Of a stretch of DNA of 32,000 bases, positions 3 to 26,463 are shown piece after piece. A program made the translations under genes and the position numbers. How positions within the stretch are numbered: the first letter of the stretch is position 1; every line of letters begins with the position of its first letter. The notes under the pieces were generated by a model, which was not told the origin of the DNA, did not search any database, and saw nothing but the letters and a program-made list of their open reading frames with translations. Source of the stretch: Phycisphaera mikurensis NBRC 102666 (GTDB lineage: Bacteria; Planctomycetota; Phycisphaerae; Phycisphaerales; Phycisphaeraceae); contig NC_017080.1 of the NCBI RefSeq assembly GCF_000284115.1, positions 450,001-482,000 of the forward strand, in the 5' to 3' direction.

Positions 3-671
3 ATCAAGCGGCTGACCTGGACGCGGGAGATCCACGACTTCGGCTGCTCGCTGAAGGCCTACCGCCGCGAGATCCTCGACGACGTCACGATCTACGGCGA
101 GATGCACCGCTTCCTGCCGGCGATCTGCAAGTGGCGGGGGGCCCGGATCACCGAGCTGGAGGTGAACCACCGGCCCCGGGCCCACGGCAAGAGCAAGTAC
201 GGGCTCAAGCGGACCGGGAAGGTCCTGCTGGACCTCATGACCGTGAAGTTCCTGGGCGACTACCTCACCAAGCCGATCTACTTCTTCGGGAAGCTCGCCG
301 CGATCTCGCTGCTGGTCTCCGGCGTGGGGGTGGTCTTCGCGCTGGTCCAGAAGCTCGGCCACCTCACCGAGCACGGCCAGCCGGTGATGCTCAACGACAA
401 CATCCTGGTTCTGCTGGCGCTGCTCACGTTCATGATGACGGTGCTGTTCCTGGTGATCGGCGTGCTCTCGGAGCTGATGGTGCGGATCTACTACGAGAGT
501 CAGGACCGGGCGCCGTACAAGATCCGATCGCTGGACCGCGGCCTCGGCGGCGGGCCCGACGGCGGCGGGGCGGTGCCCGCGGACCGCGGCGCGGGGGAAC
601 CGTTCGCGGCCGCGGTCCGCGGGCATGCGGCGGCGGCCGGGCCGCTGGAGCGGGCGCCGGGCGCCGCCTGA
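3..671 (+). CDS. GT2-family polyprenyl-phosphate glycosyltransferase (ArnC/GtrB/Dpm1-like), 5'-truncated by window edge
   Basis: Frame-3 ORF is open from the window edge. Translation runs IKRLTWTREIHDFGCSLKAYRREILDD..GEMHRFLPAICKWRGARITELEVNHRPRAHGKSKYGL, then two hydrophobic C-terminal helices and MVRIYYESQDRAPYKI. This is the typical C-terminal half of ArnC/GtrB-type GT2 enzymes. Confidence 0.8.
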   Translation: MKRLTWTREIHDFGCSLKAYRREILDDVTIYGEMHRFLPAICKWRGARITELEVNHRPRAHGKSKYGLKRTGKVLLDLMTVKFLGDYLTKPIYFFGKLAAISLLVSGVGVVFALVQKLGHLTEHGQPVMLNDNILVLLALLTFMMTVLFLVIGVLSELMVRIYYESQDRAPYKIRSLDRGLGGGPDGGGAVPADRGAGEPFAAAVRGHAAAAGPLERAPGAA

Positions 672-5705: not shown

Positions 5706-6554
5706 GTGCACCCGCCACCCGCCGAAGCCGATGAGGACGCCGCCCCCGCACCCTCGGGCGGCGACCGGCGTGACCCCGGCCGCGCGGGCGACTCCGCGTT
5801 CCGGGCGCTGCTGCGCGACCGGCGTCTGCCCGCCTGGCGCAAGTACACCGGCCTGGTCATCGGCCGCCCGGGCCTTCTCCGCCTGCTCTGGCACGAGGCG
5901 GTGATCCTCGCCTGCGGCGACCTGCCGGGGGCGTTGGGGCTGCTGCTGCGGGGCTGGCTCTTCCCCACGCTGCTGGGGGCCTGCGGCGACAAGCCGGTGT
6001 TCGGGCGGGGCATCACGCTGCGTCACCCGCACCGGATCCGGCTGGGCGATCGGGTGATCGTCGACGACCGCTGCGTGCTCGACGCCAAGGGCGGGCACGC
6101 GGTGGCGATCGACCTCGGCGACGACGTCATCCTCGGCCGCAACTCCTCGCTGATCTGCAAGACCACCTCGGGAACCGCCGGGGTGGACGCCGCCGACCCC
6201 GGCGGCCGCATCGTGCTCGGCCCGCGGGCGAACGTCTCGCTGAACTGCACGCTGATCAGCGAGTCGAGCCTCGTGCTCGGCCCGAAGGTGCTCGTCGCCG
6301 GCCACTGCTACGTGATCGCCGGCGGCAACCACGGCGTCGCGCCCTCCGGCGAGGCGATCGTCGACCAGCCGATGGCCGACCGCGGCGGGGTCGAGGTCGG
6401 CGCCGGCGCCTGGATCGGCGCCAACGCGACCGTGCTCGACGGCGTCACCCTCGGGCCCGCGGCCACCGTGGGCGCCGGCGCCGTCGTCCGCGCGGACGTG
6501 CCCGCGCACGCGACCGTGGCCGGGGTGCCGGCGCGGCCGATCCGCGGGCGATGA
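5706..6554 (+). CDS. left-handed beta-helix (hexapeptide-repeat) sugar O-acyltransferase
   Basis: This is the tail of long ORF 4407-6554. Repeated hexapeptide pattern (IRLGDRVIVDDRCVLD, VILGRNSSL, VEVGAGAWIGANATVLDGVTLGPAATVGAGAVV) with GVPARPI near the C-terminus. GTG 5706 is the first plausible in-frame start after the upstream stop, but the start is uncertain. Confidence 0.75.
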   Translation: MHPPPAEADEDAAPAPSGGDRRDPGRAGDSAFRALLRDRRLPAWRKYTGLVIGRPGLLRLLWHEAVILACGDLPGALGLLLRGWLFPTLLGACGDKPVFGRGITLRHPHRIRLGDRVIVDDRCVLDAKGGHAVAIDLGDDVILGRNSSLICKTTSGTAGVDAADPGGRIVLGPRANVSLNCTLISESSLVLGPKVLVAGHCYVIAGGNHGVAPSGEAIVDQPMADRGGVEVGAGAWIGANATVLDGVTLGPAATVGAGAVVRADVPAHATVAGVPARPIRGR

Positions 6555-6612
6555 GCGCGGGGCAGGAACACCCGGTCGCGGTCCCGGGCGGCCACGGCCC
6601 GGTTCAGCTCCT

Positions 6613-7564
6613 CCATCGACGGAGTGGATGTGGCGGCTTGGGCGGACGGATGAGCTGGAAGCGGGAACCCCGCCCGGTCGCGGCTTCGGGCCGTCTCGGT
6701 TGCAATGAGCTTCTACATCGACGGAGTCGATGAGCCACCTGGGCGGGTGGCTCATCCACTCCGTGGATGTGGCGGCTTGGGCGGACGGATGAGCGGGAGC
6801 GGGGAACCACGCCCGATCGCGGCTTCGGGCCGATTCGGTTGCAGTCGGCTTCGACATCGACGGAGTCGATGTGCCACCTGGGCGGGTGGCTCATCCACTC
6901 CGTGGATGTGGCGGCTTGGGGGCACGGATGAGCGGGAAGCGGGGAGCCCGCTTGGTCGCGGCTTCGGGTTGCTTCGGTTGCAATGAGCTTCTACATCGAC
7001 GGAGTCGATGAGCCACCTGGGCGGGTGGCTCATTCACTCCGTGGATGTGGCGGCGTAGGGGTGCGGACGTGCTGGTAGCGGGGAGCCCGCGCGGTCGCGG
7101 CTTCGGGCCGATTCGGTTGCAGTGGGCTTCTACATCGACGGAGTCGATGAGCCACCTGGGCGGGTGGCTCATTCACTCCGTGGATGTGGCGGCTTGGGGG
7201 TGCGGACGTGCTGGTAGCGGGGAGCCCGCGCGGTCGCGGCTTCGGGCCGTTTCGGTTGCAGTCGGCTTCTACATCGACGGAGTCGATGAGCCACCTGGGC
7301 GGGTGGCTCATCCACTCCGTGGATGTGGCGGCTTGGGCGGACGGATGAGCTGGAAGCGGGAACCCCGCCTGGTCGCGGCTTCGGGTTGCTTCGGTTGCAA
7401 TGAGCTTCTACATCGACGGAGTCGATGAGCCACCTGGGCGGGTGGCTCATCCACTCCGTGGATGTGGCGGCTTGGGCGGACGGATGAGCTGGAAGCGGGA
7501 GCCACGCCCGGTCGCGGCTTCGGGCCGTCTCGGTTGCGGTCGGCTTCTCCATCGACGGAGTCGA
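6613..7564. repeat. 139-bp tandem repeat array: one 102-bp copy, six 139-bp copies, one 16-bp stub
   Basis: Direct reading gives copy starts at 6613, 6715, 6854, 6993, 7132, 7271, 7410 and 7549. Each full copy begins CATCGACGGAGTCGATGAGCCACCTGGGCGGGTGGCTCATCCACTCCGTGGATG. The period is not divisible by 3. Confidence 0.95.
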
Positions 7565-7578
7565 TCGGCGGTCCGCGA

Positions 7579-8919
7579 TCAGGCTTCCGGCGTCACCAGG
7601 TCGCCGAGGATCGGTTGCAGGAAGGCCGACCGCCACCCGCGGCGCAGCCGCGAGGGGGGAAGCGGCTGCCCCGCCGCATCGGCGTAGACCAGCGCCGTCA
7701 GCTCCTTCTTGTTCAGCAGCAGCGAAGGCGAGATGCCGGCGTCCTCGGCGAAGGCCCGCACGCGGGGCCAGATCGCGTCCAGCCGGGCCTTGTCCTCCTC
7801 GCTCGGCGGCGGGTTGCGGCGCGCGCGCGGCGGCAGCGGCCCGTCCGCCGCGTCTTTGCAGACGGCGGGGATCTCCGCGGCGTAGTGCTCCTTGACCGGC
7901 CGCGGCACGCCCTTGAAGCCCCGCAACGCCGCGGCGTCGGCCGGCGGGTGCAGCGCCAGGTCGACGAGCACCTGGTCGGCGAGGAACATCCGCACCGGCA
8001 CGTCGTTGCGGATCGCTTCGGCCTGCCGCCAGTGCAGCAGGGCGTCGAGCACCGCCCTGGTCCTCCGCGACATGCCGCGCGTGCCCTGCGCCTTGAGGCG
8101 CCCGGAAAGCGGGTCGGAGACGAACGCTCCCGGCGCACAAAGCCGGCGGTTCTCCTCGGGCACCTTGGCGGTGTGGCCACGCTTGGCGACCTCCTCGTCG
8201 ATCCGCTCCCGGAGCAGCGCGAGGTAGCGGACGTCGTTCGCGGCGTACTCCCGCTTGTCGCCGGTGAGCGGCCGCTTCCGCCAATCGGTGAACTTGTGGT
8301 CGGCGCCCAGGTCGGCGTCGGTCAGGGCGTCGGTGAGCTTGCGCAGCGAGCAGGGGTAGTCCAGGCCGGCGAAGCCCGCGGCGATCTGCGTGTCGTAGAT
8401 GGCCGCCGGCGGCCGGCCCGTCAGGCGCTCAACCGGCTCGAGGTCCTGGAGCCCGGCGTGCACGAGCGTCTCCACCGCCGGGTCGGCGATCAGCTCCCAG
8501 AGCGGCAGCAGGTCGACGCCGGCAAGCGGGTCGATCAGCGTCGCGGTCTGGATCGTCGCCACCTGCAGCAGGCAGAAGATCGGGAAGAAGTTCTGCTCGC
8601 CGATGAACTCGGTGTCGAAGGCGAAGGCGCCGGCCTCGCGCAGCGTCGCGACGAGGTCCAACAGCTCGCCGTCGGTGGTCACAAGCCCCGGCACGTTGGT
8701 GGCCACCAGCGGGTGGTCCAGCGGCTCGGGCGGCGGTGCCAGGTCCAGCTTCGCGATCCGGGCCTCCTCGCGGCGGCGGTGCGGCGGGACGTAACGCGGC
8801 CAGGAGGCGCCGGGGCCCTCGCCGCCGCCGTCGCCGGTGCGGCTGGCGCGGGACGACCGCTTCCGGGGGTGCGGGGCGTCGGTCTCGTGCGGGGCGTTTT
8901 CGGAGGAGGAACGGGTCAT
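7579..8919 (-). CDS. rnd: ribonuclease D (3'-5' exoribonuclease with HRDC region)
   Basis: DEDD exonuclease blocks FAFDTEF, LVHAGLQDLE and YAANDVRYL, followed by an HRDC-like segment (LDALLHWRQAEAIRNDVPVRMFLADQVLVDLA). Confidence 0.9.
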   Translation of the reverse strand: MTRSSSENAPHETDAPHPRKRSSRASRTGDGGGEGPGASWPRYVPPHRRREEARIAKLDLAPPPEPLDHPLVATNVPGLVTTDGELLDLVATLREAGAFAFDTEFIGEQNFFPIFCLLQVATIQTATLIDPLAGVDLLPLWELIADPAVETLVHAGLQDLEPVERLTGRPPAAIYDTQIAAGFAGLDYPCSLRKLTDALTDADLGADHKFTDWRKRPLTGDKREYAANDVRYLALLRERIDEEVAKRGHTAKVPEENRRLCAPGAFVSDPLSGRLKAQGTRGMSRRTRAVLDALLHWRQAEAIRNDVPVRMFLADQVLVDLALHPPADAAALRGFKGVPRPVKEHYAAEIPAVCKDAADGPLPPRARRNPPPSEEDKARLDAIWPRVRAFAEDAGISPSLLLNKKELTALVYADAAGQPLPPSRLRRGWRSAFLQPILGDLVTPEA

Positions 8920-10359: not shown

Positions 10360-11052
10360 GTGCCACGCCGCCGGCGGCTCCGCCCGCTCTACCGTCCGGG
10401 GGTGTCCGACGCCATCTACGACCTGCTCTGCGCCGGCGGCCGGCCGGTGTGGACGCTGTGCACGAGCCCGACGGTGCTCCATGCCGAGCGGGCGAAGCTC
10501 CCCCCGCCGTTCCTGGTGGCGGCGAACCACGAGGGACCCTTCGACATCCCGATGCTGATGCGGCACGTGCCCCAGCGGCTGGACTTCCTGTCGATCGTCG
10601 AGGTGTTCTCGCGGCCGCTGCTCGGGCCGTTCTACCGGAGCATGAACGCCTTCCCGCTGGACCGCTCGCGCCCCGACGCGGCGACGGTGCGGGTGATCCT
10701 CGACCGCCTCGCCCGCGGGCGGTGCGTCGCGATGTTCCCCGAGGGCGGGTTCCGCCGCGGACGCCACCGCGTGACGGCGGGCGGGCGGATCCGGCCGGGC
10801 CTCGGCGGGCTGGCGCGGCTGGCGGGGGTGCCGGTGCTGCCGGCGGTGATGGCCGGCGGCGAGCGCTTCGCCGGCGTGCGGCCCTGGCTGCCGACCCGCT
10901 CGGTGCGGTACGGCGTGGCGTTCGGCGAGGCGATGGACCCGCCGGCCGATCCGGCGGGCGAGCGGCCCTTCGAGCTCGCCTTCGAGGCGGTGGAGCGGGG
11001 GCTGGCGGAGCAGCTGCGGGCGGTGGGCGTGAGCGGCGGCCGCGGACCGTGA
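10360..11052 (+). CDS. lysophospholipid (1-acyl-sn-glycerol-3-phosphate) acyltransferase family protein
   Basis: PlsC-family motifs NHEGPFD (Hx4D) and MFPEGG, plus the GLARLAGVPVLP block. GTG start. Confidence 0.8.
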   Translation: MPRRRRLRPLYRPGVSDAIYDLLCAGGRPVWTLCTSPTVLHAERAKLPPPFLVAANHEGPFDIPMLMRHVPQRLDFLSIVEVFSRPLLGPFYRSMNAFPLDRSRPDAATVRVILDRLARGRCVAMFPEGGFRRGRHRVTAGGRIRPGLGGLARLAGVPVLPAVMAGGERFAGVRPWLPTRSVRYGVAFGEAMDPPADPAGERPFELAFEAVERGLAEQLRAVGVSGGRGP

Positions 11053-11102
11053 GCCTTTCCCGCCGCTTTGGCCGGCGGTCCGCGGGTCGCGGATGCTCCG
11101 GC

Positions 11103-11150
11103 GGGCGGGCGGGCGGGCGGGTGGGCGGGTGGGCGGGTGGGCGGGGTGGG
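11103..11150 (+). repeat. (GGGN)12 G-tract microsatellite, a G-quadruplex-forming motif on the + strand
   Basis: Direct reading: GGGC GGGC GGGC GGGC GGGT GGGC GGGT GGGC GGGT GGGC GGGGT GGG. That is twelve G3+ tracts with 1-nt loops, ending 43 nt upstream of the rfbC ATG. Confidence 0.9.
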
Positions 11151-11193
11151 CGTGGAGCGCCGGTAGATTGTCCTCCCGCTCCGCGTCCACGCC

Positions 11194-13773: not shown

Positions 13774-13798
13774 GGAAGCCAGCAGGAAAAAACGCTCG

Positions 13799-13970
13799 CC
13801 CCCGCCGCCCCCGCCGCCCCCGACCCAACCCCCACACCCCAAGCCCCCACCTCCTCACCCCCTCGCTTCCCCACTCCCTCCCTCCCTCACTTCTTCGCTT
13901 CTTTGCTTCCTCACTTCTCCGCTTCCGCACTTCTTCGCTTCCTCGCTTCTCTCCATACCCTCTCTGCCCG
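13799..13970 (+). repeat. C-rich polypyrimidine tract with 12 C3-5 runs and three CACTTCTYCGCTTC direct repeats
   Basis: Direct reading of the 219-bp rfbB-DAHP synthase spacer. By hand count about four fifths of the + strand bases are pyrimidines. C-runs lie at 13799-13886. The 14-mer repeats start at 13888, 13912 and 13928. Confidence 0.85.
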
Positions 13971-17007: not shown

Positions 17008-18336
17008 ATGCAAGCCGCACCCCCCGATGCCGGGCCGCCCGCGGACCGCGGGCCTCTGGAGCCGCCGGCGGTCGCGGTCCGCGGGCTGGTGAAGCGGCAC
17101 GCCCGCTCGGGCCGGCTGCCCACGCGGCGGCTGCTCCGCGAGCTCGGCCTGGCGGCGCTGGGTCGGGCGGCGCCCGCCGACGCGGACGCGGGCGAGTTCG
17201 CGGCCGTCGACGGAATCTCCTTCCGGGTGGAGCGGGGCGAGGCGGTCGCCCTCATCGGCCGCAACGGCTGCGGGAAGACGACGACGCTCAAGGCGATCGC
17301 CGGGCTGGTCCGGCCCGACGCGGGGGAGGTCGAGGTCCGCGGCCGCGTGCAGGCGCTCGTCGCGCTGGGGGCGGGCTTCAACGACGAGCTGTCGGGCGCG
17401 GAGAACGTCGTCAACAACGCGGCGGTGATGGGGCTCTCCGCCGCGGAGGCGGCGCGGGTGCTCAGAAAGGCGACCGGCTTCGCCGAGATCGGCCGCTTCA
17501 TCGAAGCACCGGTGGGCACGTACAGCTCGGGCATGCGGGCCCGGCTGGGCTTCGCGGTCGCGGTCAACCTCTCCCCCGACGTGCTGCTGCTCGACGAGAT
17601 CCTCGGCGTGGGCGATCTGGCGTTCCAGCAGAAGTGCTTCACCCGGCTGCAGCGGCTCCGGCGGGCGGGGGTGACGATCCTGCTGGTGAGCCACTCCCTG
17701 GATCAGGTGAGCAAGCTGTGCGACCGGGCGGTCTGGCTCGACGGGGGCAAGCTGGTGCAGGAAGGGCCCGTGAGCGAGGTCGTCCGGGCGTACCGGGCGG
17801 CCCACAAGCCCAGGAAGGCGCCGCCGGAGGTGCTTGAACCCGCGCCGGCCAAGCGGCCGGAGAAGCCCAAGCCGCCCGCGAAGGAGCGCAAACCGCTGCA
17901 CGGGCCGGTCGTCGCCGCGGACGCCGTGCGGAACGTCTGGCTCGACGCCCCGGCCGGCGTCGGCGCCGGGGAGCCGATCCGGCTCGGGTTCGGCGCGGTG
18001 CTGGAGCGTCGGTTCGAGGCCTTCAACTTCTCCCTGGAGCTGCACACGCGGTTCGGCGTGGTGGCCGCCGAGCTCTCGACCGCCGCCACGCCGGGCCTCG
18101 CGGGCGCGGCCGGGGGCGAGGTCGCCTTCGAGCTGGAGATGCCGGCCCCGGAGTTCGTGCCGGGCCCGCTCGTGGTGATGGGGGTCATCCACGAGGGCGG
18201 GACCTGCCGGTTCCGGGACCGGCTCGGCGTGGTGGAGGTCCGGGGCGAGCCGCCGCCGCGAGGGGTGGTCCGGCCGCGTGCGACGATCCGCCGGGGCGAC
18301 GCCGCCGGAACCCAGAACGCGGAGCGGACACCATGA
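17008..18336 (+). CDS. wzt: polysaccharide ABC exporter ATP-binding protein with C-terminal extension (Wzt-like)
   Basis: Walker [10 protein letters not shown], signature YSSGMRARL and Walker [13 protein letters not shown] Lys/Pro linker and a C-terminal domain of about 170 aa follow, in the position of the Wzt glycan-terminus-binding domain (inference). Confidence 0.9.
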
Positions 18337-21300
18337 GCCCCGGAGAGGCCGCGATGCCCCGCGGATCGGCCGAGCGGGCCTCCCGCTGCGTCTACTACCC
18401 CCGCTTCCGCGGGGCCGAAGCGCTCACCAGCCACTTCCACCGCGCGGGCTGGTACCTGCCGCACCGGCCGGGCGTCTGCGACCGGGTCACGCTGGGCGTG
18501 CGGGGCGGCGCGGTGCCCGGCGCGGCGCCTTGGGGCATGGTCGATGCCCGCGACGCCGGGACCAGCGGCCACCTGGAGGTGACGGCCAACCGAACCCTAT
18601 GGCTCCGCCGGTTGCTCGCCGCGCGGGTCGTGCTGGTCTGGGACCGGCGGCACCTGGCCGCGGCGCGGTCCCTGTGCGCGGGCCGGCGCGTCGCGGTCGT
18701 GAACGTCGACACGCACGACCCGGCGGCGTCGGAGTGGGGCGCGTACGCGGGGCTGCACTGGCGGGCGCTGCTCGGCCGCGAGCGGCGGGAGGCGCTGATC
18801 GTGGCGTCGCGCCGCCGCTTCGAAGCCTTCGCGGCGGGCCTCAGGGATGCGCCTTTCGAAGCGGCCGTGGTCTACGGCACCGGGCCCTCCCTCCGAGCTG
18901 CCCGGCGCTTCGACGCCGGCAACGCCTTCCGCGTGGTCTGCAACTCCACCGTGCAGGACGACGCCCTGCTCGACCACGTCCGCCCGCACGTGATCACCGC
19001 CGGCGACGCGCTCAGCCACTTCGGCGTCTCCCGCTACGCCGAGCGCTTCCGGGCCGACCTCGTGCGGGCGCTGCGGGAGCGTGACCTGCTGTTCTTCGGC
19101 ACGGCGACGTTCGCCTCGTTGCTGCTCGCCCACCACCCCGAGATCGAGGACAAGGTGGTGCTCGTCGAGCAGCGGCGGGCCGAGCCCAACCACGACCTCT
19201 TCCAACGCTTCGAGGCCCCGGCCCTCGACAGCACGATGAACATCCACATGCTGCCGCTGGCCGCGACCTTCGCGGGCGACGTCTTCGTCCTCGGCGCCGA
19301 CGGACAGGCGCCCGCCGGCGAGAACGAGGACTTCTGGGCGCACGCCGGCGGGGCGCAGTACCACGGCCTGGTCGACACCGGCCACGCCTGCCACCCAACC
19401 TTCGCGAAAGACCGCAGCGAGCGGACCTACGCCCGGCACCTCGCCTCGGTGGAGGCGACGCTGTCCGCGGGCGAGCGGCACCACGCGAAGCGCTACGCGT
19501 GCCTGCACCCCTCGCACATCCCCGCGATGGCCGAGCGGGCGCTCGACGACGGCTGGCTCGCCGCTCGCGGCCTGTCCGCCTCGGCGGAGCGGCCGGTGCC
19601 GATCGCTTCGCTGCGCCGCTTCCTCGACGGCGACCCGCGGTGGCCGGACCGCGGCGGGGCGGGGCCGACCCCCGGCCGCGCCCGGACCGCCCCCGAAGCC
19701 GACCGGGCGGCGCTGGCCGCGCTCCGCGGCCTGCACCGCGGCCGCGCCGGCCGGCTCGTCGGCGGCACCGCCGGCCCGGGGCCCGGCCGTCCGCGGACCG
19801 GGTCCGAAGAGGTCGTCGTCGCGGTCGACGCGGCCGACGTGCCCGAGGCGGCGGGGAGCGCGGCGGCCCGGCCCGGCTTCCACGCCACCTCGGGCGACCT
19901 GCCGGCGGCGGAGCTCGACGCGGCGCTCGCCGGTCGCATCGGGGTGACCCACGCTCCGGCCGGCTCGGCCGGCGGCCTCGCCCGGGTCCGCGTCGTCGCC
20001 TGGGACGACCTCGGGCCGGTGACCGCCGACCCCGCGGCGGGCCCGCTTTGCTTCAGCGACGACCTCACGCGCGGCGGCTTCAGCGGGTCGCCGCTGATGG
20101 CGGGCCTGCAGCTCGCGGCGCACCTCGGGCTGGACCCGATCCGCCTCGACGGCTGGGACCGAGCCGCCGTGCCGGCCCGCGAGCTCGCGCACGCCCGAGC
20201 CTGGGCACGGGCCCGCGGCGTGCGGCTGGAGGGCTTGCCCGCCGCCGCGGACCGCGGGCTCCCCGCGGCTCCGGGGCCGGCGGTCCGCGGCCCCCGCCGC
20301 CGGGTGGCGGTGGTGATGCGCAACCCGGCCCGCGGGTACAGCGGCGGCCGGTACCACGCGTGGTTCCTCGCCGCGGGCCTGGTGCGGGCGGGGCACCGGG
20401 TGCGCGTGCTGACCGACCGGCTCCCGGCCTTCCTGCACGAGATCCCGCCCGCGGAGCTCGCGGCGATGGACGTGGTGGTGTCCGAGCGGCTGGAGGTCCC
20501 GCGGGGCTGGGCGCCGGACCTGGTCGTGCTCGTGCCCGGCGGCCGCCTCGACCGCCCGCTGGAGACCGCCGGCGTCCGGCTGGCCCGGGACGCGGACGCA
20601 CGCCTGGCGCTCCTGAACTTCGAGAGCGCCGACTGGTTCAACGCGCTGGCGCCCGCCCGCCGCGACGCGTCGCGCTGGGGCGGCTGGCGTTACGTCGCCT
20701 CCCACGCGGACCTCGTGCTCTCCTCCGCCCGCGAGGGCACCCGCTTCGCCCGCCGCTTCTACCGCGAGGCTCCGGCCCACACGCTCTTCCGCGAGGTCGG
20801 CCCGCCGATCCACGACGCGGCGGCGCAGGCGGTGCTCGACGCCGCACCCGCCGCCGCGGCCGAACCGGGGCGCCCGCGGATCGTGTGCATCACACGCTTC
20901 GCGGTGGGCGATCCGCACAAGGGCGGGGCGGAGGTGGCCGGGCTGTTCGGGCCCGAGCTGGCCGGCGCCGAGCTGTGCCTGATCGTCGGCCGCGACGGCG
21001 TGCCCGACGCGGTCCGCGCCGGGCTCGACGCCGCCGCCGAGGCGGCGGGCATGGCGTGGTCGCTGCACGAGCAGGTGGACGACGCCGAGAAGTTCCGCCT
21101 GCTCCACCACGGCGGCCGGCCCAGCGTGCTCGTGTTCCCCAGCCGCTTCGAGGGCTTCGGCTACCCACCGGTGGAGGCGCTGTTCCTGGGCGTGCCCGCC
21201 GTCGCCTACCGGCTGCCGGTGCTCGAGGAGGTGACCGGGGGGCTGGTCGTCTCCGTCGAGCCCGGCGACGTCGCCGGGCTGCGGCGGGCCGCCGCGGAGG

Positions 21301-21641
21301 CGCTCGCCGCCGGCCGCCTCGGGCCCGCGACGCCCGACCCCGGCCGCCTCGCCGCCTGGGAGGACCTCCGCGACCGGGCGAGCCTCGGGGGCTTCGCCCG
21401 CCGCATCGACGGCGTCGTCGCGGAGGTCATGACGCGGCCCGCCCCCCCGGCCGCCCGCGGCGCCCGCCTCTGCGATTGGCCCGAGCCACGCCGCGACCGG
21501 GCCGGGCCGGCCCGCCCGCGGAGGCCGAGGCTCGACCCGAACCCGAGCCTCTACATCCGCGCCCGGCGCGTCGGCGGCGCCATCAAGCGCCGGCTGGGGA
21601 TGCCGACGTCGCTCTCGCGCGAGGCCGGCCCAAGCGGCTGA
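18333..21641 (+). CDS. 1102-aa multidomain glycosyltransferase: N-terminal DUF115/CstII-like module, Ala/Gly/Pro/Arg-rich middle, C-terminal GT4 domain
   Basis: N-terminal region has [15 protein letters not shown] and FVLGADG, paralleling GNGPSL and GxD in CstII/MptE-like proteins. C-terminal region has [21 protein letters not shown] and [27 protein letters not shown] (GT4 EX7E region). ATGA overlap with the wzt stop. Confidence 0.8.
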
Positions 21642-23419
21642 ACGGAAGAGCGCGACGCCGGCCCGGACGCGGATCGGGGCGGGTCCTGCCGGGGCTTGGG
21701 CTTGGGCTCCCAGACCTCCAGGATCAGCTCGGTGCACGACAGGCTCCGCGTCACGTCGTACTCCTCCCGCAGCCAGGCGAGCACCGCGTCGACCTGGTCC
21801 TCGCCGGGGTACCCCCGGCCGCCGCGCTTCTCCCAGGGCCGCATCGTCACGGTGCGGAGGGGGCCCCCGCCGCCGCCGGCACGCACCCGCGCCAGCGCCT
21901 CGGCGGGTGTGGAGGTCGCCAGCGGGTCGTCGATCCAGTCGCCGCTGAAGCGCCAAAGCAGCGGCGGCGCCTCTCCCGGGCGGCCCGCCCGCTGGTGCAG
22001 GTAGCGGAGGCGGTCGCGCTCGACCACGCCGCCGAGCGTGGGCAGGCCGTCGGTGGCGGCGACCAACGCGTCCATCTCCTCCATGCACGCGCGGAACCCG
22101 ACGCCGCGCACGAACGCGGGCGCCGAGGCGGCGAAACCCACCGCGGCGGCAGCGGCCACGAGGCCGAGGGAGGCCGCGCCGGGCACGCCCCGCGGCGCTC
22201 CGAGCCCGCCCCGCCGGGCCGCCGCCAGCGCCGCCCGGGTGGCCGACTCGAGCCCGCAGATCGCCACGATCAGCAGCGGCCCCTGGGTGAAGAGCGCGTA
22301 GCGGACGTAGCCGAACGGCAGCCGCCCCAGCAGGGAGGCCGCGGCGAGCACGGCCGCCTGGAGCAGCACGAACAGCACCGTCGCCCGCCGCGCCCCGCCG
22401 CGCGCGAGGCCGTCGACGCAGCCGATGCCCAGCAGCAGGAGCATCGCGGAGGTGATCCACCACGCGGCGGCGTCCGCCGCTCTTCGGTCGAGCAGGTCCC
22501 GCAGCGACACGGGCTCCAGCGCCGTCCACAGCCAGTTCCACCCGCGGTCGGCGAGGAAATGAACCGCCCCCGTGGCCCCGCCCGCTTCGGCCTCGACGCT
22601 GCGCGGGTAGAGCCACGGCCAGACCGCCGGGCGCGGGTCGGCCAGCTCGCCGTGGGTGAAACGCGCCAGCACCACGCCGATCGTCACCAGCAGCACCGCC
22701 GCCAGCGCCGCGGCGGGCGCCCACCGCACGCGCGGGACGCTCACCGGGCCCGCGTCGCGCCCGCGCAGGCACCCCGCGGCGAGCGCGACGGCCCCGGCCG
22801 CGGCCAGCGGGAGCGCCGAGCCCAGGTACGCGAACAGCATCGCCACCATGAGCGCCGCGGTGAGCACCAGCGTTCGGGGCGACTCCGCGAAGCCACGCCG
22901 CCGCCACCGCAGCATCAGGGCCCAGGCGACAACCGAGGCGGCGAGCATCAGCGCGTAGTTGAACCAGCCGAACCCGCCCCAGTAGAGCCACGCCGCGTTG
23001 CTCGCGAACACCAGCAGCGCCGCCGGGGCGAAGCCCGGCCGCAGCAAGCCCTCGCGGACCGCCGTCCACGCGGCCCCGATCGCGGCCAGGAAGGCGATGG
23101 CCACCGCGAGCAGGCGGTAGCTCTCGACGCTGCCCACGCCCGGCAGCCGCGAGTACGCGAACATGAGCACCTCCGCCCCGAAGTGCCCGACGCCGTAGAA
23201 CGCCGTCTCGGACAGCCGGTCGCTCGCGAAGAGGTCCTGCGCCCACCGGTACTCGTCGCTCCAGTGGCCGCCGCCGAAGACGCGGCCCAGAAGGGCGGCC
23301 ACGAGCGCGCCGGCCGCGGCGAGCAGCGGCGCGCCGCGTCGCCACCGGGGCGGGCGGCCGGCACCGGATGCCGCCGCGTCCCCGGGAGCCGCGGCCGGTG
23401 GCGGGAGCCTTTCCTGCAT
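21551..23419 (-). CDS. polytopic membrane protein, putative GT-C-fold (ArnT/PMT-like) glycosyltransferase; paralogue of 23533-25227
   Basis: ORF 21551-23551 with internal ATG at 23419 (MQERLPPP). It has many hydrophobic helices. SDEYRWAQ lies just after TM1, comparable to the DExRYA motif of ArnT-type enzymes. It aligns over its full length by eye with the neighbouring + strand protein. Confidence 0.7.
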   Translation of the reverse strand: MQERLPPPAAAPGDAAASGAGRPPRWRRGAPLLAAAGALVAALLGRVFGGGHWSDEYRWAQDLFASDRLSETAFYGVGHFGAEVLMFAYSRLPGVGSVESYRLLAVAIAFLAAIGAAWTAVREGLLRPGFAPAALLVFASNAAWLYWGGFGWFNYALMLAASVVAWALMLRWRRRGFAESPRTLVLTAALMVAMLFAYLGSALPLAAAGAVALAAGCLRGRDAGPVSVPRVRWAPAAALAAVLLVTIGVVLARFTHGELADPRPAVWPWLYPRSVEAEAGGATGAVHFLADRGWNWLWTALEPVSLRDLLDRRAADAAAWWITSAMLLLLGIGCVDGLARGGARRATVLFVLLQAAVLAAASLLGRLPFGYVRYALFTQGPLLIVAICGLESATRAALAAARRGGLGAPRGVPGAASLGLVAAAAAVGFAASAPAFVRGVGFRACMEEMDALVAATDGLPTLGGVVERDRLRYLHQRAGRPGEAPPLLWRFSGDWIDDPLATSTPAEALARVRAGGGGGPLRTVTMRPWEKRGGRGYPGEDQVDAVLAWLREEYDVTRSLSCTELILEVWEPKPKPRQDPPRSASGPASRSSVQPLGPASRESDVGIPSRRLMAPPTRRARM

Positions 23420-23532
23420 GGGCGCAACCGTAACGCGGAGTTCGCGTTTTCCCCCTGCGGCATCGGTACGGTTGCCGCCCGATCCGCGCCCCGGACGAGC
23501 CGAGGCGCGTCCTGGAACCCCTCGCCGCGTCC

Positions 23533-25227
23533 ATGAACCCGCCGCCCGCACCCGTGCCCCCCGCCGCCCCGCGGGCCCTGCTCCCGCCGCTTCGCGCCGG
23601 CGTCGCGGTCGTGGTGTCCCTGCTGGTGCTGGCGGCGGCGTTGTTCTCCCGCGCGCTGGCGGGCGGCCCCGGGTTCGACACCGACCAGTACGCCCTGCCC
23701 GCCCTCAACAACGCGGCCTCCCGCTTCGACGAGTCGATGTGGCACAACACGGGCCAGACCGGGATCAACCTGCAGATGTACGCGGCCTCGCGGCTGGGGG
23801 TGAGCTCGGTCGAGGGCTTCCGAATCGTCGCCGCGGCGATCGCGTTGGCCGCCGCCGCGGTGATGGTCCGGACCGCCGTGCGGGAGCGCGTGGTGCCCCG
23901 CGGGGCGGCCCCGCTCCTGGTGGCGGTGCTGCTGCTCAACGAGCCGTTCATGCACTGGGGCACGTACGGCCCCTTCATGTACGCCGAGTTCCTCGCGAGC
24001 GGAGCCCTCGCGTGGTGGTGGATGCTGCGGTGGCGGAGGACGCGCTTCCACGGCGGCCTCGCGGAGGCGGTGCTGACCCCGGCCGCGCTGGTTCTGAGTG
24101 TCTACGTCTACATCGGCAGCGCCCTGCCGCTGGCGGTGGCGGGCCTCCTGGCCCTCGGCCACGCCCTCGCCGCGGATCGCGGAGGCGGCTCGCCCACGCG
24201 GCCGCGGCCCGCCTGGGGCCGGGCGAGCCTGTACGCGGCGTCTCTGGCGATCGCCGCTCCCGCCGTCTACGCCCTCGCTTCGCACAAGGAGCTGCGCGAG
24301 CCCCGCCGCGGGATCCACCACCTGCTGTTCAGCAGGCAGAACGGGGGCAACGCCGGCGGGCTGGCCGCCGTGCCGGGCTTCCTGGTCGAGCACACGGGCT
24401 GGTGGATCCGCTCGGCGCTGCAGCCGGTGGAGGGCTTCGGCCTGCTCTTCTGGCCGATGGTGCTCGCGTTGCTGGTGGGGTTGATCGGCTGCCTGGCGCG
24501 GCGGGGCACGCCGGCGGCGGCGACCGCGTGGTTCGTGCTCTTGAACGCCGCCGGCATGGCGGTGCTGGCCATCCGTCCCGGCACCCCTTTCGGCAGCGTG
24601 CGCTACGGCCTCTTCGTGCAGCTGGCGATCCTGGTCACCGCCGCGGCCGGCCTCGGGATCCTCGCCGCGCGGACGCGGGCGGCCTTCGCGCGGGACGAAC
24701 GCGCGACGGCCCCCCCGGCGTCCGCGCCGCCGGCGCGCGCGCGGCCCCGGCGGTCGTGGCTCCTCCTCGCCGCCGTGGTCCTGCTCGGCGTCGTCCTCTC
24801 GGCGCGGTGGCTCGGGCAGGCGGCGGAGCACCGGGCCGCCTTCGAGCGGGTCGTCGCGATGGTGGAGCGCACGCGCGGGTGGCCCACCGTGTCGGACTCC
24901 CTCGCCCACTACGCGATGCTGTACATCGGCGAGTCGGCGCAGCACGCGGCGAGCGTCGTGCCGAAGAACCTCGTGCGGCCCGGCGACGCGGCGGACGACG
25001 CCGGCGCGGTCCAGGTCGCGGCGCTGGAAGCGCTCGGCGATCCGCCGAGGCTCCGCACCCTCTCGCGCTTCCAGAACGTGGAGCCCGTCGCCCGGCCCGG
25101 AGGCGAGGGCCCGCGGGTCGGGTACGAGAACCACCCGGTGGTCGACGCCTGGGTCAACGATCGCTACCGGCCGGTGGAGCGGGAGTCGGTGCCGAGCCTC
25201 AACGTCACGCTCTGGGAGCGGAAGTAG
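23533..25227 (+). CDS. polytopic membrane protein, putative GT-C-fold glycosyltransferase; paralogue of 21551-23419
   Basis: Blocks shared with the divergent neighbour: SRLGVSSVEGFRIVAAAIA vs SRLPGVGSVESYRLLAVAIA, MLRWRR in both, YIGSALPLAVAG vs YLGSALPLAAAG, FGSVRYGLF vs FGYVRYALF, and C-terminus NVTLWERK vs ILEVWEPK. DTDQYA follows TM1. Confidence 0.75.
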   Translation: MNPPPAPVPPAAPRALLPPLRAGVAVVVSLLVLAAALFSRALAGGPGFDTDQYALPALNNAASRFDESMWHNTGQTGINLQMYAASRLGVSSVEGFRIVAAAIALAAAAVMVRTAVRERVVPRGAAPLLVAVLLLNEPFMHWGTYGPFMYAEFLASGALAWWWMLRWRRTRFHGGLAEAVLTPAALVLSVYVYIGSALPLAVAGLLALGHALAADRGGGSPTRPRPAWGRASLYAASLAIAAPAVYALASHKELREPRRGIHHLLFSRQNGGNAGGLAAVPGFLVEHTGWWIRSALQPVEGFGLLFWPMVLALLVGLIGCLARRGTPAAATAWFVLLNAAGMAVLAIRPGTPFGSVRYGLFVQLAILVTAAAGLGILAARTRAAFARDERATAPPASAPPARARPRRSWLLLAAVVLLGVVLSARWLGQAAEHRAAFERVVAMVERTRGWPTVSDSLAHYAMLYIGESAQHAASVVPKNLVRPGDAADDAGAVQVAALEALGDPPRLRTLSRFQNVEPVARPGGEGPRVGYENHPVVDAWVNDRYRPVERESVPSLNVTLWERK

Positions 25228-25311: not shown

Positions 25312-26463
25312 TCAGCGAAACGTCCGCGCGACGATCATGTATCCGATGTACGCGACGCCGGAGAGGAACTGGGCGACGAAGAGCCACTTCAGCACCCGGA
25401 TGCCCGGGGGCACGCAGCGCCCGAGGGCCCGGGGTGCGAAGTGCGCCGTGAGCACGATGAGCAGAAGGGCGCTGGCGGGGATGGTCTGCCAGACGAGGTT
25501 GCCGTGGTGCCGGCGGAGCCCCGACTCGATGAAGACTCCGCTGATCAGGACGCCGCAGGCGGTGAGCAGGCCCGCGTACAGGACCGGGAGGCTCCGCAGC
25601 AGGCGGCCGGGCTCCAGGGCGAGCGCGAGCAGCGGGATGCAGAAGGAGATCAGCAGCGAGACCGGCACGTACCAGGCCGCTGTCCAGGCGATGAACACCT
25701 CGAAGAAGCCCCCGATCGTCAGCCCGTCCTCGCCGTCGTTGAACGAGCCGACCCCGAGGCGGTAGATCAGCACGTACTGCGCGGCCACCGCGGCCGCGCC
25801 CACTGTGTACGCGGCCAGGTTCAGGAGCGTCTTCGCGACGCCCCGGTCCCGCGCGAAGACGATCAGCAGGAGCGTGGACACCGGGAGGAAGACGAAGAGG
25901 AAGGACGGCTTGATCAGCGCGTTCACGAGGATCAGGCCCGACAGCGCCGCGAACCGCCGCGGCGTCAGGTCGTGCCCGCCGGCGAACAGCTCCAGCTGCC
26001 GCCGGAACAGGAGGATCGCGAACGGGAACAGCACGATCGTCGTGGAGTTGTGCCAGACCACCGGCACGAACCGCCCGAGGTACATGCGGCCGAGGCCGAA
26101 AACCAGGTAGGGGTCCGGGATCGTGAAGCTGATCCCCAGCATCAGCGACAGCGACGCGATCGTGCGGGCGCCGGGGGTCGCGCCCCCGCGGGCGAGCAGC
26201 CACCGCAGCAGCGACTTCGTGAGGGCGTAGCGCCAGGCGACCGCGCCCGCGAGCAGGAACACGGCCGCGGCTCGGAGCGCCGCGAGGTCGCCCGAGAAGC
26301 CGCTGAGCAGGTCCAGCGCGAGGTAGTAGAGGAAGTTCGGCGGGTACGCGGCCTCGCCGTCGCGGATCTTCTGGACCTGCGCGACGTGAGGCAGGAGGTC
26401 GCCCTCGGCGTAGAGGAGCAGGTACGCGAAGAAGGCCGCGGCGGCCACGAACACCAGCGCCAC
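25312..26463 (-). CDS. polytopic membrane protein of unknown family (possible polymerase/GT-C-like)
   Basis: ORF 25312-26742. The body is about 10 hydrophobic helices. The first ~93 codons are Pro/Gly/Arg-rich and would overlap the wecE start. I prefer GTG at 26463 (VALVFVAAAAFF), but the start is uncertain. Confidence 0.6.
   Translation of the reverse strand: MALVFVAAAAFFAYLLLYAEGDLLPHVAQVQKIRDGEAAYPPNFLYYLALDLLSGFSGDLAALRAAAVFLLAGAVAWRYALTKSLLRWLLARGGATPGARTIASLSLMLGISFTIPDPYLVFGLGRMYLGRFVPVVWHNSTTIVLFPFAILLFRRQLELFAGGHDLTPRRFAALSGLILVNALIKPSFLFVFLPVSTLLLIVFARDRGVAKTLLNLAAYTVGAAAVAAQYVLIYRLGVGSFNDGEDGLTIGGFFEVFIAWTAAWYVPVSLLISFCIPLLALALEPGRLLRSLPVLYAGLLTACGVLISGVFIESGLRRHHGNLVWQTIPASALLLIVLTAHFAPRALGRCVPPGIRVLKWLFVAQFLSGVAYIGYMIVARTFR

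What the first reader, a model, noticed from the sequence alone, without database searches (positions are those of the whole stretch)
6613..7564. 139-bp tandem array (1 short, 6 full and 1 stub copy) filling the gap between two convergent genes
Copies start at 6613 (102 bp), at 6715, 6854, 6993, 7132, 7271 and 7410 (139 bp each), and at 7549 (16-bp stub). A degenerate partial copy may precede them at about 6570-6612. The array occupies almost all of the roughly 1 kb between the acyltransferase stop (6554) and the rnd stop (7579). The period of 139 is not a multiple of 3. The staggered ~93-aa ORFs on both strands in the track all initiate at the same ATGAGCCACC palindrome arm, so they are repeat artefacts rather than genes. 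It is not a CRISPR, because the segments between palindromes are homologous to one another and no cas genes are present. It is not an rRNA or tRNA, and no transposase is nearby. Each unit has a nearly invariant, structured 5' part of about 60 nt and a more variable 3' half. Known arrays of this kind include tandem multicopy sRNA loci (LhrC type), centromere-like protein-binding arrays (F-plasmid sopC, 12 x 43 bp each with an inverted repeat) and REP/BIME clusters at convergent 3' ends. None of these fits obviously. Adjacency to RNase D, an RNA 3'-end processing exonuclease, is suggestive but unproven.
Basis: partly seen in the sequence, partly recalled or inferred. Interest (0 to 1): 0.85.

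Follow-up and report, generated by a model that had tools for sequence, protein, structure and literature searches.

The report
Palindrome-cored 139-bp tandem repeat family
The 1-kb gap between two convergent genes of the planctomycete Phycisphaera mikurensis holds a real, non-coding 139-bp tandem array built around a strongly conserved hairpin-forming palindrome; it belongs to a small species-restricted repeat family of at least three arrays, resembles known REP/REPIN/BIME clusters, and has no demonstrated function.

Summary
The host is Phycisphaera mikurensis NBRC 102666 (Planctomycetota).

Each unit is a 56-nt composite palindrome plus an 83-nt G/T-rich linker. The palindrome has two 17-nt arm hairpins flanking a GC-rich central hairpin. 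It is nearly invariant (2/56 variable columns); the linker is variable (28/83) but fixed in length.

Two annotated spurious ORFs of the same genome, PSMK_01230 and PSMK_04550, are translations of further arrays with the same conservation pattern. The family therefore has at least 3 loci, so adjacency to RNase D is coincidental.

The array is absent from the syntenic 182-bp spacer of the closest relatives. I found no homologue in the genome, metagenome, viral, plasmid or phage searches I could run, nor among 1.84 billion protein representatives.

It is not coding, not a CRISPR and not an Rfam family. It has no promoter- or terminator-like motifs and no covariation. The one Y1 transposase found in the genome is flanked by unrelated inverted repeats.

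Best reading: a lineage-specific REPIN/MITE/BIME-like palindromic minisatellite that replaced most of the native hairpin after rnd. Any role is inferred only.

The parts
5706..6554 (+). Hexapeptide-repeat acyltransferase gene (left flank, converging on the array)
   Evidence: Pfam Hexapep. A 282-aa gene is called in draft contig L179. It is 67% identical over its full length to the orthologue in relative L050.
6550..6613 (+). Degenerate linker-like copy overlapping the acyltransferase stop codon
   Evidence: nhmmer with the rotated unit profile: profile positions 18-103 align to 6550-6632, E 1e-4; the same hit recurs in L179 and L180.
6614..6631 (+). Collapsed palindrome CATCGACGGAGT|GGATGT: the 5' half of arm 1 fused to the 3' end of arm 2, with the 37-nt inner part missing
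   Evidence: Sequence reading, pattern match, weak fold of -2.0 kcal/mol.
6632..6714 (+). First complete 83-nt linker
   Evidence: The rotated unit profile matches 6632-6770 at E 6e-44.
6715..6853 (+). Unit 1: 56-nt composite palindrome 6715-6770 (arm hairpins 6716-6732 and 6753-6769, central hairpin 6733-6752) plus 83-nt linker
6854..6992 (+). Unit 2 (A19T in the palindrome; its linker is closest to that of unit 5, 92.8%)
6993..7131 (+). Unit 3 (C42T gives a G.T pair; variant-B linker)
7132..7270 (+). Unit 4 (C42T; linker 95.2% identical to that of unit 3)
7271..7409 (+). Unit 5 (consensus palindrome). RNA fold is -77.6 kcal/mol on the + strand and -60.7 on the - strand
7410..7548 (+). Unit 6
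7549..7566 (+). Terminal 18-bp stub holding arm 1 only (CCATCGACGGAGTCGATC)
7569..7578 (-). Surviving proximal arm (TCGCGGACCG) of the native 46-nt hairpin element CCGCGGACCG-N26-CGGTCCGCGG. Relatives carry this element intact just after the rnd stop; here it is truncated by the array
7579..8919 (-). rnd (RNase D) gene (right flank, converging on the array)
   Evidence: Pfam DNA_pol_A_exo1 + HRDC. It is identical to the P. mikurensis proteins BAM02574 and WP_041377891.

Best explanation
The array is a non-coding, lineage-specific repeat family of Phycisphaera mikurensis. It behaves like a REPIN/MITE/BIME-type palindromic element amplified head-to-tail.

Anatomy. The conserved core is a 56-nt composite palindrome. 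Two 17-nt stem-loops (7-bp stem, 3-nt loop) sit in inverted orientation around a GC-rich central stem-loop. Together they can fold into one 25-bp-arm hairpin or cruciform. An 83-nt spacer of fixed length and variable sequence separates successive cores.

Shown:
- the anatomy;
- at least 3 arrays in one genome;
- arms conserved about 5-10 times better than the linker, both within and between loci;
- absence from the syntenic site in relatives;
- no coding, promoter, terminator or known-RNA signal;
- truncation of the native post-rnd hairpin.

Inferred:
- The arms are kept because they are the structure recognised for propagation or maintenance by an unidentified protein that binds a hairpin or a dyad.
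- The arrays grew by slippage or unequal recombination between the identical palindromes, which would explain the mosaic linkers and the absence of indels.
- At this site the hairpins now act as the barrier between the convergent transcripts. On the rnd-sense strand, strong hairpins alternate with C-rich, poorly structured 83-nt stretches that look like Rho entry sites. On the other strand the RNA is G/U-rich and highly structured.
For: Array and period.

Nested dyads. The DNA hairpin has dG -25.3 kcal/mol (z -7.8). The arm hairpins are -5.2 and -5.0 and the central hairpin -8.1. The only two mismatches of the long hairpin (G6.G51 and C14.C43) are a compensated G-C to C-G flip that keeps each arm self-complementary.

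Conservation asymmetry:
- 2/56 versus 28/83 variable columns, p 1.3e-5;
- locus 2 (PSMK_01230): 4/64 versus 24/83 codons changed, p 5e-4;
- locus 3 (PSMK_04550): 0/36 versus 21/54 codons changed, gapless, with only the loop longer, giving a period of 141.

The loci lie about 40 and about 292 genes from this one.

Absent in relatives. L050 and L051 keep the same gene order (acyltransferase 67% identical, RNase D 82% identical). Their spacer is 182 bp and shows no homology to the unit.

Native hairpin. It is intact in L048, L049, L050 and L178. Here only its proximal arm remains.

Non-coding. No Rfam hit. No promoter or terminator motifs. No covariation.

Linker composition on the + strand is G 45%, C 26%, T 20%, A 9%.

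Precedent. Ordered tandem REPIN and REP clusters of up to 12 REPs with fixed spacing exist in P. fluorescens SBW25 (PMC3116915).
Against: - No solo copy of the palindrome occurs in about 54 kb of P. mikurensis DNA, whereas REP/REPIN families are dense and mostly solitary.
- No cognate transposase was found. The one Y1_Tnp gene located is flanked by unrelated 23-bp inverted repeats.
- There is no canonical 5' GTAG or CGTC tag and no target-site duplication at the array ends.
- Mobility, transcription and termination are all untested.
- The strictly fixed 83-nt linker length across 12 linkers in 3 loci, and the conserved blocks inside the linker (columns 103-115, 121-128, 134-139), suggest constraint beyond the arms. 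A pure selfish-element model does not predict this.
- Relatives manage without the array, so any host function is dispensable.
Confidence: 0.5

Rival explanations
1. Neutral minisatellite. The array is a by-product of slippage or unequal crossing-over seeded by a long palindrome. Nothing recognises it and it has no function. The palindromes look conserved only because recombination and repair tracts initiate at the hairpins and homogenise them, while linkers are reshuffled as blocks.
For: - The array is absent from the closest relatives at the same site.
- Linkers are mosaic. Best matches are u3-u4 (95%), u2-u5 (93%) and u1-u6 (88%).
- There is no promoter, terminator, Rfam or covariation signal.
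- Draft assemblies simply break inside it.
Against: - The same palindrome/linker asymmetry holds between three loci tens to hundreds of kb apart. Unequal crossing-over cannot homogenise across loci, and ectopic conversion would have to stop at the arm boundaries.
- The compensated flip keeps each arm self-complementary at the cost of the long hairpin.
- No indels occur in 12 linkers despite 20-40% divergence.
Confidence: 0.2
2. Protein-binding platform on double-stranded DNA. Each unit offers two near-identical 17-bp dyads (CATCGAC-N3-GTCGATG and CATCCAC-N3-GTGGATG) 37 bp apart, plus a GC-rich central dyad, repeated at a fixed pitch. The arrays would nucleate a dimeric DNA-binding protein, in the manner of centromere-like or nucleoid-organising arrays.
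For: - The perfect 7-3-7 dyads are kept by a compensated change.
- Linker length is strictly fixed while its sequence is free.
- Several arrays occur per chromosome.
- Loop length varies (6, 7 or 8 nt) while the stems do not change.
Against: - No par, partition or regulator gene lies next to the array.
- The pitch is not constant between loci (139 versus 141 bp).
- Relatives lack the arrays.
- The dyads occur nowhere else in about 54 kb.
- Binding cannot be tested with these tools.
Confidence: 0.15
3. Array of structured non-coding RNAs. The array would be read from the + strand as the 3' extension of the acyltransferase operon and cut at the long hairpins (for example by RNase III) into about 139-nt units with a variable 40-nt segment. 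This would be a multicopy sRNA locus.
For: - The + strand folds better (-77.6 versus -60.7 kcal/mol).
- One-sided changes stay paired as G-U on the + strand but break on the - strand. The change inferred in locus 2 behaves the same way.
- The + strand carries CUUCGG motifs.
- Variable columns cluster at 63-102, between conserved blocks.
Against: - Z-scores are the same on both strands (-5.15 and -5.02), and both are driven by the palindrome.
- No compensatory pairs occur, the covariation term is positive, and several predicted linker pairs are broken.
- No per-unit promoter or U-tract terminator is present.
- No Rfam match approaches a family threshold.
- A G/U-rich strand tolerates transitions by composition alone.
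- Relatives lack the array.
Confidence: 0.12
4. Coding repeat, CRISPR array or type I/III toxin-antitoxin RNA array.
For: - ORFs of 93-127 aa lie on both strands, and two such ORFs are annotated as hypothetical proteins elsewhere in the genome.
- The layout of regular palindromes plus spacers of similar length superficially resembles a CRISPR.
Against: - The period is 139 (not a multiple of 3), and stops occur in all six frames.
- The ORFs have no Pfam hit and no homologue outside this genome among 1.84 billion representatives.
- The 16-20-aa ORF inside the palindrome varies in length and reads through in unit 4.
- The spacers are homologous to one another.
- No cas or toxN-like gene lies in the 32 kb.
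Confidence: 0.02

Closest known systems
Ordered tandem REPIN and REP clusters of Pseudomonas fluorescens SBW25 (Bertels & Rainey 2011, PMC3116915; read)
   Same: Both are extragenic tandem repeats whose unit is a hairpin-forming pair of inverted short palindromes plus flanking sequence, at fixed spacing. SBW25 has GI-GIII REP arrays with 112 + 72 bp spacing and up to 12 REPs. Both occur as several arrays per genome, and in both the palindromes are better conserved than the rest.
   Different: In SBW25 the same REPs also occur in hundreds of solitary doublets and lie next to their RAYT genes. Here no solo copy was found in about 54 kb, and the only Y1 transposase gene located is flanked by unrelated repeats. 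The sequences are unrelated. The arms are shorter (17 nt) and enclose a third, central hairpin.
E. coli BIME-2 arrays of alternating Y/Z2 REPs with short and long linkers (from my own knowledge, not checked here)
   Same: The architecture is (arm, short spacer, inverted arm, long linker) repeated n times. Both sit at 3' ends between convergent genes. BIME-2 is thought to act as an mRNA 3' stabiliser or attenuator and as a gyrase site.
   Different: The BIME-2 period is about 80-100 bp, the REPs carry a GTAG tag, and the family is dispersed at hundreds of sites. Host-protein binding is documented for BIMEs and untested here.
MITEs (miniature inverted-repeat transposable elements)
   Same: Read in the other phase, the unit is a 133-bp element with 25-bp terminal inverted repeats and a freer interior. 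It has no coding capacity and occurs at several loci. Inverted repeats conserved more than the interior is the classic MITE pattern.
   Different: There is no target-site duplication, no parent IS with the same ends, and no solitary insertion. All three known loci are head-to-tail arrays separated by 6-8 nt.
MIRU-type VNTR loci of mycobacteria (from my own knowledge)
   Same: Both are multi-locus intergenic tandem arrays in a high-GC genome, and both are lineage-restricted.
   Different: MIRUs are 46-100 bp, lack a long palindrome, and often carry small ORFs coupled to the flanking genes.
CRISPR arrays
   Same: Both show regularly spaced palindromic repeats separated by segments of constant length.
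   Different: The segments here are 77-95% identical to one another. The 'repeat' is 56 nt and the 'spacer' 83 nt. There are no cas genes and no leader.
Centromere-like arrays (F sopC: 12 x 43 bp, each with an inverted repeat)
   Same: Both are tandem units that each carry a dyad.
   Different: No partition genes are nearby. The arrays are chromosomal, multi-locus and have a much longer unit. Binding is untested.

Membership tests
REP/REPIN-RAYT system | Short imperfect palindromes (about 20-40 nt) able to form a stem-loop | tested here: met
   The arms CATCGAC-GGA-GTCGATG and CATCCAC-TCC-GTGGATG have 7-bp stems, with DNA dG -5.2 and -5.0 kcal/mol. At 17 nt they are at the short end of the range.
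REP/REPIN-RAYT system | Two REPs in inverted orientation forming a larger hairpin (the REPIN) | tested here: met
   The 56-nt hairpin has 23 of 25 arm positions paired, DNA dG -25.3 kcal/mol, z -7.8.
REP/REPIN-RAYT system | Tens to hundreds of dispersed, mostly solitary extragenic copies | tested here: not met
   No solo copies occur in about 54 kb of P. mikurensis DNA. Only 3 loci are known, and all are arrays. The whole chromosome could not be scanned.
REP/REPIN-RAYT system | A cognate single-copy RAYT (Y1 HUH transposase) flanked by the same REPs | tested here: not met
   The P. mikurensis Y1_Tnp gene P0129 (locus L175) is flanked by CGCGAAGGTGTCAGGTACATTCA / TGAATGTACCTGACACCTTCGCG, not by the array palindrome. 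This is the 'TIRYT' type of PMC3733652. Other Y1 genes in the genome were not surveyed.
REP/REPIN-RAYT system | An unpaired GTAG (or CGTC) tag 5' of the stem | tested here: not met
   A GTAG adjoins arm 1 only on the minus strand, on the 3' side and overlapping the stem. Arm 2 has none (sequence reading; definition from PMC3733652).
BIME-2-type mosaic array | Alternating inverted palindromic units with two linker classes, at 3' ends or between convergent genes | tested here: met
   The arrangement is (arm 1, 20-nt inner spacer, arm 2, 83-nt linker) repeated between the convergent acyltransferase and rnd stops.
BIME-2-type mosaic array | Binding by host proteins (gyrase, IHF, Pol I) and an effect on mRNA 3' ends | not testable with these tools
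   This needs ChIP, EMSA or Term-seq.
MITE | Terminal inverted repeats bounding a short non-coding element | tested here: met
   In the alternative phase, 25-bp arms bound an 83-nt interior.
MITE | Target-site duplications and a related autonomous IS with the same ends | tested here: not met
   No duplication is visible at the array ends. No transposase lies in the window or in the flanks inspected. The genome-wide search could not be run.
CRISPR | Unique spacers between identical direct repeats, with cas genes or a leader nearby | tested here: not met
   Linkers are 77-95% identical to one another. No cas domain occurs in the window ORFs scanned.
Tandem multicopy sRNA locus (LhrC or NsiR1 type) | Each unit has its own promoter and intrinsic terminator, and the RNA structure is conserved | tested here: not met
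   There are 0 promoter-like and 0 terminator-like sites. No compensatory pairs occur on either strand. No Rfam family is matched. Planctomycete promoters are poorly defined, so the promoter test is weak.
Centromere-like / partition-site array | Repeated dyads next to parA/parB-type genes, bound by the partition protein | tested here: not met
   The neighbourhood consists of glycan-biosynthesis genes, rnd and mqnD. Binding is not testable here.
Coding tandem repeat | An open frame maintained through the repeats, with a period that is a multiple of 3 | tested here: not met
   The period is 139 and stops occur in all six frames. Locus 3 has a period of 141, but its ORF is only 109 aa and ends in the same TAG.

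The most novel reading that the evidence does not exclude
The arrays could be a dedicated functional device of a kind not yet described. In this reading, a triple-dyad 56-nt palindrome held at an exact 83-nt spacing, in several arrays on the chromosome, acts as the assembly platform for an unknown hairpin- or dyad-binding protein. Alternatively it is a processed array of structured RNAs with a variable 40-nt segment. Either way the arm conservation and the fixed linker length would reflect host-level selection, not selfish propagation.
Probability: 0.15. Interest if true: 0.65.

Novelty: new variant of a known kind. Interest (0 to 1): 0.38.

Why it matters
Repeat families of Planctomycetota are almost undescribed. 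This one combines features usually seen apart:
- REPIN-like nested hairpins;
- MITE-like conserved ends;
- a BIME-like position at convergent 3' ends;
- CRISPR-like constant spacing.

So far it is seen only as arrays. If the arms prove to be a recognition structure, it offers a small, tractable case for asking how palindromic repeats are maintained without an obvious RAYT.

Practically, the arrays break short-read assemblies of this genome and generate spurious 'hypothetical proteins' (PSMK_01230, PSMK_04550). They would also serve as VNTR markers.

Otherwise this is an ordinary, probably dispensable, lineage-specific repeat.

Tried and rejected
1. Genome scan. A scan of 185,579 species genomes for ATGAGCCACC-N4-8-GGTGGCTCAT gave 45 loci. 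All were single chance 10-bp palindromes in unrelated taxa; none was tandem and none came from Phycisphaera. The window itself may be masked in that collection.

2. Metagenome scan. The tandem-aware pattern AGCCACC..GGTGGCT..AGCCACC returned mostly single chance matches. Its multi-match loci looked like low-GC CRISPR arrays (repeat GCAGCCACCTTCGGGTGGCTGTGTGTTGAAAC, read in L060). None of the returned loci was homologous to the unit.

3. Other collections. Viral contigs and plasmid and phage blastn gave nothing.

4. RAYT hypothesis. I located a P. mikurensis Y1_Tnp through a homologue in relative L049. It is flanked by unrelated inverted repeats.

5. Origin of the linker. I asked whether it derives from the native 46-nt hairpin element or from the ancestral rnd-acyltransferase spacer. 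Local alignments are not better than shuffles (p 0.05-0.9).

6. RNA structure. RNAalifold on both strands gave no compensatory pairs. The Rfam E-value search gave only sub-threshold miRNA-precursor-like hairpin matches.

7. Small toxic-peptide ORF (MSHLGGWLIHSVDVAAWADG). Its length is not conserved among units.

8. DNA of loci 2 and 3. I could not retrieve it.

9. Comparable arrays in relatives' contigs. TRF found none, but most of those contigs are short-read assemblies that could not hold one.
Full report
**1. Observation**

Tandem Repeats Finder reports one outstanding array in the window: 6624-7565, period 139, 6.8 copies, 89% matches, no indels, score 1474. Every other row in the window scores 50-83. 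The repeat finder places seven in-register copies exactly 139 bp apart.

A profile built from the six full units recovers three further pieces:
- the short first copy, 6614-6714 matching columns 39-139 (E 6e-25);
- a weakly significant degenerate linker-like copy at 6550-6632 that overlaps the acyltransferase stop codon (E 1e-4);
- the terminal arm at 7549-7566.

GC falls from 0.75-0.80 in the flanks to 0.65-0.68 in the array, and GC skew rises to +0.23.

The flanking genes are as stated. A hexapeptide acyltransferase ends at 6554. RNase D (DNA_pol_A_exo1 + HRDC) ends at 7579 on the minus strand.

The palindrome core matches only inside the array within the 32-kb window (12 matches against 0 expected).

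**2. Source**

The RNase D is identical to that of Phycisphaera mikurensis NBRC 102666. Neighbouring proteins carry accessions BAM02571 to BAM02581, rising with window coordinates. No BAM-numbered (GenBank) protein falls between the acyltransferase and rnd.

Both flanking contigs of the draft assembly GCA_014207395.1, and the Logan contigs of SRR12223476, stop inside the array.

The neighbourhood consists of glycan-biosynthesis genes: rml genes, glycosyltransferases, an ABC-2 exporter, and DegT- and formyltransferase-family enzymes. No transposase, cas or partition gene was found.

**3. Anatomy**

Each unit is a 56-nt palindrome followed by an 83-nt linker.

The palindrome reads ACATCGACGGAGTCGATGAGCCACC-TGGGCG-GGTGGCTCATCCACTCCGTGGATGT. 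As DNA it folds at -25.3 kcal/mol with z -7.8.

It is composite. Each arm contains its own perfect 17-nt stem-loop: CATCGAC-GGA-GTCGATG and CATCCAC-TCC-GTGGATG, at -5.2 and -5.0 kcal/mol. The centre is a third hairpin, AGCCACC-TGGGCG-GGTGGCT, at -8.1 kcal/mol.

The long hairpin has only two mismatches, G6.G51 and C14.C43. These are exactly the two positions that pair with each other inside each arm. Arm 2 therefore differs from the reverse complement of arm 1 by a compensated G-C to C-G flip. The flip preserves the local hairpins at the expense of the long one (read). It is a single evolutionary event, so the evidence is suggestive only. It nevertheless points to the 17-nt dyads or hairpins being what matters.

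The linker is G 45%, C 26%, T 20%, A 9% on the + strand. On the rnd-sense strand it is therefore C-rich and G-poor, and it is predicted to be largely unstructured.

**4. Conservation pattern**

Among the six full units, 2 of 56 palindrome columns vary against 28 of 83 linker columns (Fisher p 1.3e-5). Palindromes are 96-100% identical; linkers are 77-95% identical. There are no indels.

Variable columns cluster at 63-102, 116-120 and 129-133, between invariant blocks.

Linkers are mosaic. The best matches are u3-u4, u2-u5 and u1-u6.

**5. Other loci**

A search with the six-frame translation of the consensus hit one protein, PSMK_01230 (BAM02282, 263 aa). Its residues 117-263 are a gapless translation of at least 3.17 units in three successive frames, 81% identical to the consensus translation. 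Its N-terminus does not match the window, so it is a second locus.

An exhaustive phmmer search of that protein against 1.84 billion representatives found only itself and PSMK_04550 (BAM02614, 109 aa), again from P. mikurensis. PSMK_04550 covers at least 2.3 units with a period of 141 nt. The hairpin loop is 8 or 7 nt instead of 6. The arms and the linker length are unchanged.

The same asymmetry holds in both loci:
- locus 2: 4/64 palindrome codons changed against 24/83 linker codons (p 5e-4);
- locus 3: 0/36 against 21/54.

The family therefore has at least three arrays, about 292 genes to one side and about 40 genes to the other side of this one. All 12 linkers seen have the same length.

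ORF-based detection cannot see solo copies. However, about 54 kb of P. mikurensis DNA (the window plus L175, L179 and L181) contains none.

**6. Relatives and wider searches**

Contigs carrying RNase D at 80-82% identity were fetched.

L050 and L051 keep the same gene order: rnd converges on the acyltransferase, followed by the epimerase, glycosyltransferase and FAD-oxidoreductase genes. Their acyltransferase is 67% identical to the window's. Their spacer is only 182 bp and shows no similarity to the unit.

No homologue of the unit turned up in any of the following:
- the genome-collection scan;
- the metagenome scan, where the one multi-match locus I read (L060) is a CRISPR array;
- viral contigs;
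- plasmids or phages.

As far as these data reach, the family is restricted to P. mikurensis.

**7. What the array replaced**

In L048, L049, L050 and L178 a hairpin CCGCGGACCG-N26-CGGTCCGCGG lies within 5-16 nt of the rnd stop.

In P. mikurensis only the proximal arm survives (TCGCGGACCG, 7569-7578, minus strand). The array stub ends 2 nt from it, at 7566.

This 46-nt element is itself a dispersed family, unrelated to the array (see 'noticed in passing').

Similarity of the linker to that element, or to the relatives' spacer, is not significant.

**8. Tests of specific identities**

- Coding: rejected. The period is 139, stops occur in all frames, and there are no Pfam hits and no homologues outside the genome.
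- CRISPR: rejected. The spacers are homologous to one another and there are no cas genes.
- Known RNA: none at Rfam gathering scores. At relaxed thresholds only miRNA-precursor-like hairpin matches appear, far below cut-off.
- Per-unit promoter or intrinsic terminator: none.
- Conserved RNA structure: there are no compensatory pairs on either strand and the covariation terms are positive. On the + strand several one-sided changes stay paired as G-U where the minus strand breaks, and the + strand folds at -77.6 against -60.7 kcal/mol. The z-scores are equal, and a G/U-rich strand behaves this way by composition alone.
- RAYT link: relative L049 has Y1_Tnp genes just downstream of its rnd. The P. 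mikurensis homologue (P0129, 71% identical) is flanked by unrelated 23-bp inverted repeats, which are absent from the window. That is the 'TIRYT' arrangement of Di Nocera et al. 2013 (PMC3733652), not a REP-flanked RAYT.
- The canonical 5' GTAG or CGTC tag is absent.

**9. Interpretation**

What it is (high confidence): a non-coding, species-restricted, multi-locus tandem repeat family with a hairpin-forming composite palindrome as its conserved core.

How it most likely works (moderate confidence, inferred): a REPIN/MITE/BIME-like element. Its arms are maintained because an unidentified protein recognises them, as small hairpins or as dyads. It was amplified by slippage or unequal recombination between identical palindromes. 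At this site it replaces the truncated native hairpin as the barrier between convergent transcripts.

The closest documented precedent is the set of ordered tandem REPIN and REP clusters of P. fluorescens SBW25. That genome has 16 tandem REPIN clusters and 11 GI-GIII arrays with fixed 112 + 72 bp spacing and up to 12 REPs (PMC3116915). E. coli BIME-2 has the same alternating architecture (from my own knowledge).

Membership in the REP/REPIN family is not established. Three defining features were tested and not met: dispersed solo copies, a cognate RAYT, and the tag.

Rivals not excluded: a neutral minisatellite with hairpin-focused homogenisation, a dsDNA protein-binding platform, and a processed RNA array.

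The fixed 83-nt linker length across three diverged loci is the observation least well explained by the selfish-element model.

**10. Verdict**

The RNase D adjacency is coincidental. The array is a new variant of a known kind of bacterial repeat, of moderate interest.

Noticed in passing
window 577-622, 11040-11085, 17039-17084, 20245-20290, 31905-31950 (solo half at 19791-19800; truncated copy at 7569-7578); also L048, L049, L050, L051, L175, L178, L179, L181: A second, unrelated dispersed palindromic element: CCGCGGACCG-N26-CGGTCCGCGG (46 nt). The 10-bp outer stem is invariant. The interior varies in sequence but is 26 nt long in 19 of 20 copies. The 10-mer occurs 11 times in the window against 1.45 expected. 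Density is about one copy per 5-6 kb in P. mikurensis and in relatives with about 80% identical RNase D. Some copies lie inside genes and some span or follow stop codons. One is conserved just after rnd in four relatives. No Rfam family matches it, and RNAalifold finds no conserved inner structure.
   Followed up: partly
window 6715-7548: Linker similarity among the units is mirror-like (u3-u4 95%, u2-u5 93%, u1-u6 88%) although all units are direct repeats. Simple block duplication does not give this pattern; it points to repeated recombination between units.
   Followed up: partly
window 536-595: A 21-nt x 3 tandem repeat (CCGCGGACCGCGGGGCGGGC) overlaps one copy of the 46-nt element near the 3' end of the first ORF.
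   Followed up: no
window 11100-11152: A G-rich repeat (GGCGGGTG) x 6.5 lies in the short spacer between the PlsC-like acyltransferase gene and rmlC.
   Followed up: no
window 13797-13950: A C/T-rich block of short repeats (CGCCCCCGC x 2.9, CTTCTTCG x 7.6, and 16- and 24-nt periods) lies between the dTDP-glucose-dehydratase-like gene and the DAHP-synthase-family gene.
   Followed up: no
L175 5600-6400 (P. mikurensis draft contig JACHEL010000024.1): The Y1_Tnp (IS200-like/RAYT-like) gene is bracketed by 23-bp inverted repeats CGCGAAGGTGTCAGGTACATTCA / TGAATGTACCTGACACCTTCGCG. An ORF follows whose N-terminus (FFAIDLEERIRPDHPLRPI) looks to me like an IS5/IS1182-family transposase (from my own knowledge, not tested), and the contig ends there.
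   Followed up: partly
L049 11356-21356: In one relative, rnd is followed by two Y1_Tnp genes (206 aa and an unusual 499 aa), RHS/YD-repeat toxin-like genes, and a spacer with GGGCCTGGACACCAC direct repeats. The region downstream of rnd therefore varies between relatives.
   Followed up: no
PSMK_01230 (P0121) and PSMK_04550 (P0243), outside the window: Both annotated 'hypothetical proteins' are translations of arrays of this repeat family and should not be treated as genes. In P0121 the residues just upstream of the repeat (GRTA) could encode CGGACCGCC, which hints that this array also abuts a half 46-nt element. The hint is weak and post hoc.
   Followed up: partly
L060, L092, L105, L107, L114, L131, L132, L134 (metagenome contigs): Multi-match loci (6-26 pattern matches each, spaced about 200 bp apart; 44-56% GC) were picked up by the tandem search pattern. 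L060, the only one I read, is a CRISPR array with repeat GCAGCCACCTTCGGGTGGCTGTGTGTTGAAAC; the others are presumed similar. None is homologous to the array unit.
   Followed up: partly
window 21551-23704 (-), 23434-25227 (+), 25312-26751 (-): Three sizeable genes inside the glycan-biosynthesis region (called as 622, 564 and 380 aa in L181) have no Pfam match.
   Followed up: no
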